Origin: Trichoplax adhaerens
Lineage: Eukaryota; Animalia; Placozoa
DNA length: 64,000 bases
Direction of reading: 5' to 3'
Assembly: GCF_000150275.1 (NCBI RefSeq)
Contig: NW_002060957.1
Location: 452,348-516,347, forward strand
Below the pieces are notes generated by a model. The model was not told the DNA's origin. It saw only the letters and a program-made list of their open reading frames with translations, and searched no databases. The stretch's first letter is position 1. Each line of letters begins with the position of its first letter. Shown here one piece after another: positions 3,467 to 6,180 of this stretch. The translations under genes and the position numbers were made by a program.

Positions 3467-6180
3467 TTAGTTTCCGACTACCTTTCCCTATAGGATGATT
3501 AGTTCATTAGGTAGGTGATGATGGAAAAGGAATTTTATAAATAGAATTATTAGTATACAAGTTTTAATTGAATAGCCTTAAGAGATTTCATCATAGAGTA
3601 TCTACAATAGTATGGCTAGAGTCAAAGCATTTTATCTGTAAATGAAGCTACGTAGGTAGTAATACGTAAAGTAATGAAGTTGGCAAATCGATAGCAATAG
3701 ATATTAACTAATCTTGTATGTACACGATCATAAGTTAATTACGTCGAAAGTGTAACTTACAATGCGACGACGGCGGTACTATTTTATATTATAAGTTGCC
3801 CATGATCGATGACATAAATAGTAATACAGAAAACAATAAAATCATTAAATTGATATCAATAGATATTAATTCGATCAGAACTATTACAAGATATTTATAA
3901 ATATATGCCAATGATATCAAATATGCAATTTTTAGTAATGCTGACGGTACTAAATTTATTCACAAGTTGTAAGATTTGTCTTTAAGAAATGTAGATAGCA
4001 AAATGAAAATTATTACTATTGATATGGTCATACTAAGGGACATGAGCTTATTTGGTTCACTAATTATATCATGAAGTATCGGTATACATATTAAATTAAA
4101 ATGCAACTTACAAAGCGACGGCGGCGGTACTGTTTCGTTTATAAGTTTTTCATGGTTAGAAAATGTTAGTAGAATAAAAATTATTAACACTGATGCAGTA
4201 ATAAAACGAAACGTTTACTAAAAAAAGCTAGATTTATTTTCATATATAGCATTTAAAATGCAACTTACCCAGCGACGACGGTACTATTTCATTTATAAGT
4301 TGTGTTCATTTTTGAAAATTATAAGTAGGAATATAAAAAGAGTTAGCTCTGATATAGTAATATTACGAGACAATAACTAGATTAGGTCACTAGTTATATT
4401 ATCATATAGGATTCAAAATATAACTTACTAAGAAGCGACGACGATACTGTTTCGTTTATTAGTTGTTTATTATTGAAAGATATAAGTAGTAAAATAGAAA
4501 GTAGAAAGCGTTAATATTGATAGAGTAATAGAACGAGATTAGATCACTGGATATATTATCATATAGCATCCAAAACGTAACTTATCAAGTTGCAACAATT
4601 ACACTACTTTATTTGTAAATTGTTATTATTGAAAAGTAATTAGTGAAAAAAAAGTAGAAAGATTTAATATTGATACAGTCATGTTAAGAGATAATGATTA
4701 GATTTTACCTAAACACCTATACTATCAAGTAGTATTTGAAATACAACTTACCCAGCGGCGGCGGCGGATTACCTATTTGTTCATAATTCCATTTATTAAA
4801 GAAAAGCATAAGAAGTATATTAGAGAGCATTATAGTTAGTTAAGTAAGAGTAGATAATATTACACTACATGTCGTTCAAGTATTTTTCTGATATTCTTGT
4901 ACTGATTGTAAAATCGCGCCTGAATCGTTTAAAATACGATATTGATATAAATTGCTCATGATAATAAATTAATATTAATATGGGCGATTCACTTCGTCCT
5001 AAATAAGTGACTGACTTTATGCATAGTCAAAAATTACGCTTAATAGTAATGCGTAAATCTAGTATGTTTTTTACTTGTAAGTGTTCATTATTGAAAAGTA
5101 AGTAACGAAATAGAAAGTAGAAGAGATAGTTTCAACAGTAATATGCAAATCTAGTATACTTGTGTATCAATGAATTATACTCTGATGAGTATGGTGATAA
5201 GATCAACACGTTTACAGCAGTGCAAATCCGCTTGTACGTATACCAGTAATGCAAAGGCAGATTTTATATAAGAAATTGATATATTTATATTTTACTTACC
5301 GAACGACGACGTCTATAGTAGGCCTTTAAGGATAAAATGATGTCGATATTGTCATTAAATCAATCAAAAAAGTAATGAAGTTATTAACTCAGATAAATAA
5401 TAGACATCAATACAATACTGTATCATATCAAATATACATGTAGGCAATAATCATTAATGATATAGCTTACAGCTTTATCTGAAGTTTCCTGTAATTTTCC
5501 ATTATAATATATTCAAAACATAGATCGAGCAAAGAAAGAAGAATAAATTAATATCGTAGAACAGGATGAACTTTCGAACAAAATGATGATTTTTCTACTT
5601 GTTAATTTTTGTTATATCGCCTTGAGCTGTCAATTACTGCTATCGTATGGGTTTATAGATTAAATTTGATTTCACTAACTGTTCCTTTATTACAAGAGGC
5701 TAGAGCAAAATCTTGTATAGCTATAACTTATCTAGCGAAAATAGGTGTAGTTTTGTTACTAAGATGTTGTGATCATAAAATCACTGTGATAGCAGACGAA
5801 CTTTGATACAGTAAGATAATATGGTAAAGCAAAGTTTCATTACTATTTATACGTCAGTGAGAAAACGTTTGCGTATTATTATGTAACAGTTGTTATAGAT
5901 TTATGCGTTAACGGATTAAGATGGTGATACTTGACGAGGGCAAATATCGTTAGTAACTAGTAGAATAAAGTGCACATACTAAAGCTTGGGGTTCTTCTTC
6001 GTCATCTTCTTTTTCAGCTACATCAGTTTCGTCATCTTCTTCGTCAATTTCCTTTTCTTCTGGTTGTTCTATTTCAGTTTCTTCATTTTCCTTTGCGTGT
6101 TCTTCAAATTCCCGTGAGGGTTCTGCAGCCCAAGCAACGGCGCAAAATAAGGTCACAAGTATAAGGATGCTGATCTTCAT
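3467..6180 (-). CDS. Secreted prepropeptide (~117 aa): signal peptide + acidic pro-domain + poly-Arg/aromatic cationic peptide (candidate antimicrobial peptide), encoded by micro-exons
   Basis: Coding exons, all phase 0 and flanked by AG/GT: 6180-5980 (MKISILILVTLFCAVAWA-AEPSREFEE...EEEPQAL, donor GTATGT); 5488-5471 (ETSDKA); 5323-5300 (AYYRRRRS); 4772-4752 (VIRRRRW); 4446-4429 (YRRRFL); 4283-4269 (YRRRW); 4129-4112 (YRRRRF); 3778-3761 (YRRRRI); probable last exon 3487-3467 (GKVVGN*). All six Arg micro-exons end in GTAAGT. AATAAA on the minus strand at 3369-3364. The terminal exon is the least certain part. Confidence 0.8.
3740..4830 (-). repeat. Tandem array of ~7 diverged intron+micro-exon units (period ~155-180 bp)
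   Basis: Micro-exon starts at 4772, 4603, 4446, 4283, 4129, 3949 and 3778 (spacings 169, 157, 163, 154, 180, 171). Units share flanks, e.g. plus-strand aaaatgcaacttac...gtactgtttcgtttataagttg...ttgaaaa...agtag. Confidence 0.85.

What the first reader, a model, noticed from the sequence alone, without database searches (positions are those of the whole stretch)
3467..6180. Hidden micro-exon-assembled poly-arginine/aromatic secreted peptide (candidate new antimicrobial peptide)
Seen: the 76-aa ORF at 5950-6180 is only the first coding exon. Downstream, six 15-24-nt exons with AG acceptors and GTAAGT donors, all phase 0, splice into AYYRRRRS-VIRRRRW-YRRRFL-YRRRW-YRRRRF-YRRRRI (38 aa, 22 Arg, 10 aromatics). 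They follow a signal peptide and an Asp/Glu-rich pro-region. Established: signal + acidic pro-piece + cationic C-terminal peptide is the architecture of host-defence precursors such as Hydra arminins and amphibian dermaseptins, and Arg/Trp-rich peptides are membrane-active or cell-penetrating. Inference: this is an AMP or toxin whose active part is encoded one repeat per micro-exon, a structure gene predictors would probably miss.
Basis: partly seen in the sequence, partly recalled or inferred. Interest (0 to 1): 0.9.

Follow-up and report, generated by a model that had tools for sequence, protein, structure and literature searches.

The report
Micro-exon-built arginine peptide of Trichoplax
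A gene of the simple marine animal Trichoplax, cut short in its public annotation, splices eight tiny exons into a precursor ending in a 38-residue arginine/aromatic repeat that is predicted to be secreted, likely from the upper body surface, and likely acts as an antimicrobial peptide.

Summary
Spliced contigs in 7 of 8 laid public runs (6 studies) join the six arginine micro-exons; the eighth run looks like DNA and shows no splice joint. Layout: signal-like N-terminus, acidic pro-piece (net -23), Arg/aromatic tail (net +22). The animal is Trichoplax; the NCBI H2 model TrispH2_010970 stops after the first arginine exon. Published single-cell tables put the gene in the dorsal-epithelium module, apart from the ventral arminin-like AMP1-3. 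The exons sit in roughly 160-bp tandem units, two of them decayed, and alleles differ. The tail is not an amphipathic helix, unlike trichoplaxins and arminins. Antimicrobial action is inferred, untested (about 0.6); a mucus-binding polycation or a deterrent against eukaryotes remain open. New variant of a known kind: a placozoan host-defence-type precursor built like a schistosome micro-exon gene.

The parts
6478..6483 (-). TATA-like box about 30 nt upstream of the furthest 5' RNA cover
   Evidence: motif in sequence; function inferred
6419..6451 (-). exon 1, non-coding; 5' end approximate
   Evidence: joint 6188/6419 with CT..AC ends in X4 and X9, longest side 33 letters
5980..6188 (-). exon 2: ATG at 6180, signal-like residues 1-18 and most of the acidic pro-piece (67 codons); GTATGT donor
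   Evidence: 97% identical to TrispH2_010970; spliced at 5980
5471..5488 (-).
   Evidence: letters between joints and joint 5322/5470; present in the H2 model
5300..5323 (-). Arg micro-exon 1 (24 nt, 4 Arg; 21 nt and 3 Arg in the other expressed allele)
4752..4772 (-). Arg micro-exon 2 (21 nt, 4 Arg, Trp)
   Evidence: joint 4772/5979 in X4, X9, X5, X16, X14
4586..4603 (-). decayed copy of the exon unit: AG kept, donor GT changed to AT, Arg codons lost; not in the spliced contigs
   Evidence: alignment of units, flank identity 0.64-0.76 to the five units downstream of it
4429..4446 (-). Arg micro-exon 3 (18 nt, 3 Arg)
   Evidence: contig length arithmetic
4269..4283 (-). Arg micro-exon 4 (15 nt, 3 Arg, Trp)
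   Evidence: 14 letters between 4130 and 4429 in X4, X5, X9, X14, X16, X7
4112..4129 (-). Arg micro-exon 5 (18 nt, 4 Arg)
   Evidence: X10 loose end across 4269/4129
3932..3949 (-). second decayed copy of the exon unit: AG and Tyr-Arg start kept, donor lost
3761..3778 (-). Arg micro-exon 6 (18 nt, 4 Arg)
   Evidence: X5 contig of 242 letters = 201+3+19+19
3482..3487 (-).
   Evidence: three letters between 3372 and 3760 in 7 of 7 spliced runs; joint 3370/3482 CT..AC in X7 and X10
2989..3370 (-). last exon: Lys codon, stop at 3367-3365, 3' UTR with poly(A) signals at 3307, 3110, 3013; poly(A) tail at 2989
   Evidence: T-run loose ends at 2989 in X4 and X14

Best explanation
The gene makes a spliced mRNA for a 114-aa precursor that is predicted to be secreted, likely by dorsal epithelial cells, and likely cut to release an amidated, roughly 38-residue Arg/aromatic polycation that likely kills or holds off microbes on the exposed upper surface. 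Shown: the exon chain, its splicing, the composition, the tandem origin of the exons. Inferred steps: residues 1-18 are removed as a signal peptide (hydrophobic core, Ala-X-Ala end; by rule, no SignalP run); the acidic pro-piece (55 aa, net -23) masks the tail (net +22, +24 with the two Lys) inside the cell and granule; a cut near the linker exon frees it (site unknown, no dibasic site in the pro-piece); Gly-Lys-Lys is trimmed and amidated; the freed chain binds anionic bacterial surfaces through Arg, anchors through Tyr/Trp/Phe every six residues, and permeabilises the membrane in carpet fashion or crosses it and binds nucleic acid, not as an amphipathic-helix pore. Length and charge change by gain and loss of roughly 160-bp intron-exon units.
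For: Splicing in 7 of 8 laid runs, none in DNA-like X1. Charge balance of pro-piece and tail, no Cys, Gly-Lys-Lys end. Orthogroup members fall in the module annotated epithelia_dorsal in both Trichoplax species: 0.94 and 0.762 (PMC10580291 supplements); dorsal cells hold many secretory granules and express intelectins linked to defence (PMC12013895). Same animal has the same tripartite layout in trichoplaxin-2, with a 13-Arg run, whose synthetic C-terminal fragments have MICs of 0.25-2 uM (PMC7436000), and in arminin-like AMP1-4 with C-terminal Gly. Tandem units and decayed copies.
Against: No activity data exist for this peptide, and the placozoan arminin-like genes themselves are untested (a reviewer said so). 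The tail is not amphipathic as a helix: best 18-mer moment 0.32 against a shuffle median of 0.55, 96.5% of 2000 shuffles higher or equal, unlike the tested trichoplaxins. Six runs of 3-4 Arg are convertase-type sites (established knowledge) and could shred it. Seawater salt weakens electrostatic binding (established knowledge). The amidating and convertase enzymes are reported as part of the peptidergic-cell module; their presence in dorsal cells was not checked. Module membership is co-expression, not localisation.
Confidence: 0.6

Rival explanations
1. Structural polycation of the dorsal secretion: the released tail condenses or cross-links anionic mucin and glycans in granules and in the surface coat (coacervate or cation-pi glue), with any killing secondary.
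For: Regular six-residue Arg/aromatic period (moment peak at 60 degrees, 0.1% of 2000 shuffles reach it) without helical amphipathicity; dorsal cells carry lectin-binding granules and a mucin-4-like gene. Arg/Tyr-rich adhesive proteins such as mussel Mfp-3 are a recalled parallel, not tested.
Against: A charge-matched acidic pro-piece and an amidation-type end are typical of bioactive peptides; the dorsal side is not the one that grips the substrate (PMC8639732 abstract start names the ventral epithelium).
Confidence: 0.15
2. Deterrent aimed at eukaryotes (predators, fouling protists or algae): a cell-penetrating poly-Arg toxin shed from the upper surface.
For: Dorsal module; Arg/Trp/Phe repeats of this kind are predicted cell-penetrating (PMC9495127 passages). 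Predator deterrence by placozoans is recalled, not retrieved.
Against: No similarity to any family at cut-off in Pfam or NCBIfam, none in PDB; the paper search on dorsal epithelium, predator and toxin listed nothing that ties a peptide to it. Not exclusive of the best explanation.
Confidence: 0.12
3. Signalling precursor: convertases cut at every Arg run and release 2-3-residue aromatic peptides.
For: Six runs of 3-4 Arg separate pieces of 2-3 residues; placozoan neuropeptide precursors are repeat-built.
Against: The listed placozoan precursors use single or paired basic sites between longer, near-identical units; the gene is in an epithelial, not a peptidergic, module; a Gly-Lys-Lys after the last residue would amidate a single amino acid.
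Confidence: 0.07

Closest known systems
Trichoplaxin-2 precursor of T. adhaerens (PMC7436000; passages and section 3.1 part 1 seen, precursor sequence is a picture and was not seen)
   Same: Same genus; signal, acidic pro-piece, cationic C-terminal part with a poly-Arg run; tested as amidated peptide ending Ile-Gly-Lys.
   Different: The tested T2 sequence (Table 1) is another sequence and 72-75% predicted amphipathic helix; here the tail is six Arg3-4/aromatic units with no helical moment. Exon structure of T2 not seen.
Placozoan arminin-like AMP1-4 (Ta 55945, 56030, 60631, 64402; PMC12013895)
   Same: Signal, very acidic N-part, basic C-part, C-terminal Gly for amidation, epithelial secretion, function untested.
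   Different: Stated 150-250 aa against 114 here; separate orthogroups (OG_7677, 8170, 8172, 8173 against OG_10807); AMP1-3 in the ventral module, this gene in the dorsal one. The fifth, unnamed arminin-like gene and S7 Fig were not seen.
Hydra arminins
   Same: Precursor layout and amidated cationic C-terminal peptide.
   Different: Described as alpha-helical; no arminin sequence came up in the protein searches.
Schistosome micro-exon genes (MEGs; PMC5825161 and bioRxiv 10.1101/2023.06.21.545858, passages seen)
   Same: Secreted product, symmetric exons of 6-36 nt, poor automatic annotation; some MEG products are cationic membrane-binding peptides.
   Different: Micro-exons give 138 of 342 coding nt (40%), not about 80%; MEGs diversify by exon skipping, none seen here; no sequence link; other phylum, so convergent.
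AMP genes grown by exon duplication (Nasonia nasonin-6; PMC2853521, passages seen)
   Same: One repeat per exon, made by exon duplication.
   Different: There each exon is a whole defensin domain with phase-1 introns; here each is 5-8 residues, phase 0.

Membership tests
Tripartite host-defence peptide precursor (signal, acidic pro-piece, cationic peptide) | N-terminal signal peptide | tested here: inconclusive
   Hydropathy 2.1-3.2 in the first nine 11-residue windows and Ala-X-Ala at 16-18; no SignalP available
Tripartite host-defence peptide precursor (signal, acidic pro-piece, cationic peptide) | Acidic pro-piece before a cationic C-terminal peptide | tested here: met
   28 Asp/Glu in 55 aa, net -23; tail net +22
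Tripartite host-defence peptide precursor (signal, acidic pro-piece, cationic peptide) | Released peptide kills microbes | not testable with these tools
   no assay; absent from the published peptide list, which also lacks AMP1-4 and ELPE orthogroups, so uninformative
Arminin / placozoan arminin-like AMP1-4 | C-terminal Gly for amidation | tested here: met
   Gly-Lys-Lys-stop shown by spliced contigs
Arminin / placozoan arminin-like AMP1-4 | Sequence homology or shared orthogroup | tested here: not met
   only TrispH2_010970 found at 36-2000 aa; separate orthogroups
Arminin / placozoan arminin-like AMP1-4 | Length about 150-250 aa, ventral (lower) epithelium | tested here: not met
   114 aa; dorsal module
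Trichoplaxins | Amphipathic alpha-helical mature peptide | tested here: not met
   helical moment below shuffle median
Trichoplaxins | Identity with a described trichoplaxin precursor | tested here: inconclusive
   T2 peptide differs; T1 and both precursor sequences not seen
Schistosome MEG | Symmetric exons of 6-36 nt in a secreted-type gene | tested here: met
   eight exons of 6-24 nt, all phase 0
Schistosome MEG | About 80% of the coding region in micro-exons | tested here: not met
   138 of 342 nt, 40%
Schistosome MEG | Variants by exon skipping | tested here: inconclusive
   no skipping joint listed in 7 spliced runs, but contigs drop rare forms and tables were cut

The most novel reading that the evidence does not exclude
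A placozoan has independently evolved a micro-exon dial for an innate-defence polycation: each roughly 160-bp intron-exon unit adds one Arg3-4/aromatic step, units are born and die, and co-expressed alleles give peptides of different length and charge on the dorsal surface. It would be a natural, non-helical poly-Arg/aromatic antimicrobial or cell-penetrating peptide and the first member of a class of placozoan effectors hidden from gene predictors.
Probability: 0.3. Interest if true: 0.8.

Novelty: new variant of a known kind. Interest (0 to 1): 0.62.

Why it matters
It adds a dorsal-surface candidate to the very short list of placozoan antimicrobial peptides (one review names trichoplaxins as the only known family) and gives a short linear peptide that can be bought and tested at once. 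It shows that a well-expressed secreted gene is truncated in the public annotation because its working part lies in 6-24-nt exons, so database-driven peptide mining and proteomics could not find it; others of the kind may be hidden in placozoan genomes. It is also a clean case of a repeat peptide growing by tandem duplication of intron-exon units, convergent with schistosome micro-exon genes.

Tried and rejected
Read-through of exon 2 to the stop at 5950, and of the last exons to 3467: rejected, spliced contigs dominate. Genomic or retrocopy origin of the joints: DNA-like X1 covers all 30 bins and lists no joint inside the gene. Protamine-like nuclear protein: rejected on the signal-like N-terminus, acidic pro-piece and dorsal-epithelium module; the gene is not in a meiosis module. 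Identity with AMP1-4: rejected. Homologues: three protein searches covering 36-2000 aa gave only the H2 model (1 of 1, 0 of 312, 1 of 1 candidates); Pfam and NCBIfam gave only low-complexity hits below cut-off; PDB none; ESM Atlas best 0.78, chance level. The one metagenome locus L001 is a 70% GC chance match with no micro-exons (that scan covered 20 of 64 parts). The deep HMMER search over cluster representatives never ran, so distant relatives are not excluded. No whole genome was held, so paralogues elsewhere in the genome were not sought. Absence from the published peptidome is uninformative. Unit count of the second allele could not be fixed: its contig between 5296 and 3372 was left unplaced. 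Earlier scan findings: none by place or words; two by sequence were unrelated acidic proteins. No structure was predicted.

Full report
Observation. A scan of the whole window for AG, 12-27 in-frame nt with three Arg, GTAAG finds exactly these 6; 200 order-3 Markov simulations gave a mean of 0.015 and never more than 1.

Organism. Exon 2 is 97% identical to TrispH2_010970 of Trichoplax sp. H2, and two GPCR ORFs of the window cluster with H2 proteins. The window differs from the H2 model at two residues and its own proteins are separate records, so it is another Trichoplax assembly, most likely T. adhaerens (inferred).

Splicing. Of 23 runs listed I laid 8. Seven, from six studies, show spliced contigs (X4, X9, X5; X16, X14, X7, X10); only X4 and X9 are on record as RNA, the rest are guessed. 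X1 covers all 30 bins evenly and lists no joint in the gene, as DNA would. The joints give: 6419/6188 (X4, X9); exon 2 to an 18-nt exon at 5488-5471 and on to the first Arg exon (38 letters between 4772 and 5979 in X4, X5, X9, X14, X16; joint 5322/5470 with CT..AC in X4, X16, X7, X10); the 15-nt exon as 14 letters between 4130 and 4429 in six runs; and three letters between 3372 and 3760 in all seven, which with the matching neighbours make the 6-nt exon 3487-3482, confirmed by a CT..AC joint 3370/3482 in X7 and X10. The two junctions the tool did not list (4752/4446, 4112/3778) follow from an X9 loose end and from contig lengths: X5's 242-letter contig equals 201+3+19+19, and X14's 269-letter contig leaves 37 letters for exon 2, which its depth in that bin reproduces (37.0). 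Poly(A) tails end at 2989 in X4 and X14. The product is 114 aa and ends Gly-Lys-Lys-stop.

Alleles. The chain above is one allele, whose first Arg exon is 21 nt (three letters fewer, ending in Phe), so its tail is 37 aa. A second expressed allele in X4, X16, X7 and X10 carries the window-like 24-nt exon and the H2 model's residues; the tool left its part between 5296 and 3372 unplaced. One X9 contig shows, after the 4446-4429 exon, a further Tyr-Arg3-Phe-Leu unit and then another Tyr-Arg unit where the window has the Trp exon, which suggests a different unit set (one contig only). The window's exact haplotype is not seen on one contig.

Annotation. The NCBI H2 model (RDD37028.1, 85 aa) holds the linker and the first Arg exon and then runs into the intron; the same intron in the window gives the same four-residue tail. 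No other record was found at 36-2000 aa, although proteins of the window's own assembly are in that collection (3 of 8 ORFs found exactly). A T. adhaerens model Tadh_wf_g9346 exists in the tables of PMC10580291; its sequence was not seen and may already hold the micro-exons.

Anatomy. Residues 1-18 look like a signal peptide; 19-73 hold 28 Asp/Glu (net -23); the tail has net +22, or +24 with the final lysines; it has no Cys. The pro-piece has no dibasic site, so the release site is unknown. The tail has a six-residue period (moment 1.05 at 60 degrees, 0.1% of 2000 shuffles) and no helical amphipathicity (0.32 at 100 degrees, 96.5% of shuffles as high or higher). This is a result against filing it with trichoplaxins, arminins or dermaseptins at the level of the active peptide.

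Origin of the exons. TRF finds a 157-bp unit at 4375-4679; self-alignment gives offsets of 153 and 326 across 4827-3943. Two decayed units lie at 4603-4586 and 3949-3932, with the acceptor kept and the donor lost. For the six units from 4603 to 3778, 13 of 15 pairs of 80-nt upstream flanks exceed 0.60 identity, the 99th percentile of 500 random pairs; the linker, first Arg and Gly-Lys exons mostly do not. So the array grew by tandem duplication of intron-exon units and also loses them (inferred).

Expression. In the supplements of PMC10580291 (searched, plus the first parts of mmc3 and mmc5; mmc1 and mmc4 are held cut) OG_10807 has two members, Tadh_wf_g9346 and TrispH2_010970, none from Hoilungia or Cladtertia. 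They fall in Tadh.yellow (0.94) and TrH2.brown (0.762), both annotated epithelia_dorsal. AMP1-3 of PMC12013895 fall in the ventral module and all four AMPs in other orthogroups. The gene is absent from the paper's list of 733 peptides, but so are the AMP1-4 and ELPE orthogroups, so this says nothing. PMC12013895 (abstract, passages, sections 6 part 1, 14, 20, 26, S8 text; S7 Fig not held) describes dorsal cells as granule-rich and intelectin-expressing.

Mechanism. Best reading (0.6): a dorsal-surface defence peptide, stored masked by its acidic pro-piece, released, amidated, and acting as an extended polycation with aromatic anchors on anionic microbial surfaces. Only the gene, its splicing and composition are shown; secretion, cleavage, amidation and killing are inferred. 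The nearest tested case is trichoplaxin-2, same layout with a 13-Arg run, whose synthetic fragments have MICs of 0.25-2 uM (PMC7436000, passages and section 3.1 part 1), but those fragments are helical and leave most of the Arg run out. Rivals: mucus- or granule-condensing polycation (0.15), deterrent against eukaryotes (0.12), precursor shredded into 2-3-residue signals (0.07). Processing enzymes are described for peptidergic cells; their expression in dorsal cells was not checked.

Novelty. Full-text searches for the accession, gene id and motifs, Trichoplax with the repeat motif, microexon with Trichoplax (3 unrelated papers listed), and placozoa with arginine-rich antimicrobial peptide found no description of this peptide or gene structure; the library lacks most subscription papers, the 2014 trichoplaxin-1 paper was not read, and the supplement of bioRxiv 10.64898/2026.08.23.746575, whose peptide library includes a placozoan peptide (passages only), was not seen. 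Two reviews (PMC11767717, PMC12466427; passages) name trichoplaxins as the characterised placozoan AMPs; PMC6321704 has no occurrence of 'antimicrobial'. The precursor layout is known, and micro-exon secreted genes are known from schistosomes and exon-duplicated AMPs from wasps. What is new is the sequence, the dorsal assignment and the one-repeat-per-micro-exon build in a placozoan. It fails membership of arminins, trichoplaxins and MEGs on tested features while working, by inference, like the first two and being built like the third. Verdict: real, new variant of a known kind, interest 0.62.

Noticed in passing
window 15871-22027 (-): Three long intronless ORFs on one strand (808, 324, 837 aa; gaps of 20 and 221 nt). 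Weak Pfam matches below cut-off: RickCE-like catalytic domain in the 808-aa ORF (E 0.0016) and a NACHT fragment at the start of the 837-aa ORF (E 0.0031). The 808-aa protein is in public collections with no other cluster member. Possibly a bacterial-type immune or symbiont-derived gene in pieces; origin not tested.
   Followed up: partly
window 40591-41724 (+) and 52223-53353 (+): Two similar single-exon rhodopsin-family GPCR genes (Pfam 7tm_1). Their H2 counterparts RDD39617.1 and RDD39624.1 lie on a 217,872-base contig, while TrispH2_010970 lies on a 67,515-base contig.
   Followed up: partly
window 28710-29024 (+) and 31444-31746 (+): Short ORFs that by eye resemble death-fold (CARD-like) exons; Pfam gave no support.
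   Followed up: partly
window 7551-7600: A 50-N assembly gap about 1.1 kb upstream of the gene's first exon; the only gap in the window.
   Followed up: no
window 4964-5576: The window differs here from the allele it matches downstream (21 letters and 3 gaps in 670 in X14, against none at 4112-4891) and also from the second allele, so it is a third haplotype or an assembly mosaic.
   Followed up: partly
window 60001-64000: GC rises from about 0.30 to 0.376 and 0.445 in the last 4 kb; cause not examined.
   Followed up: no
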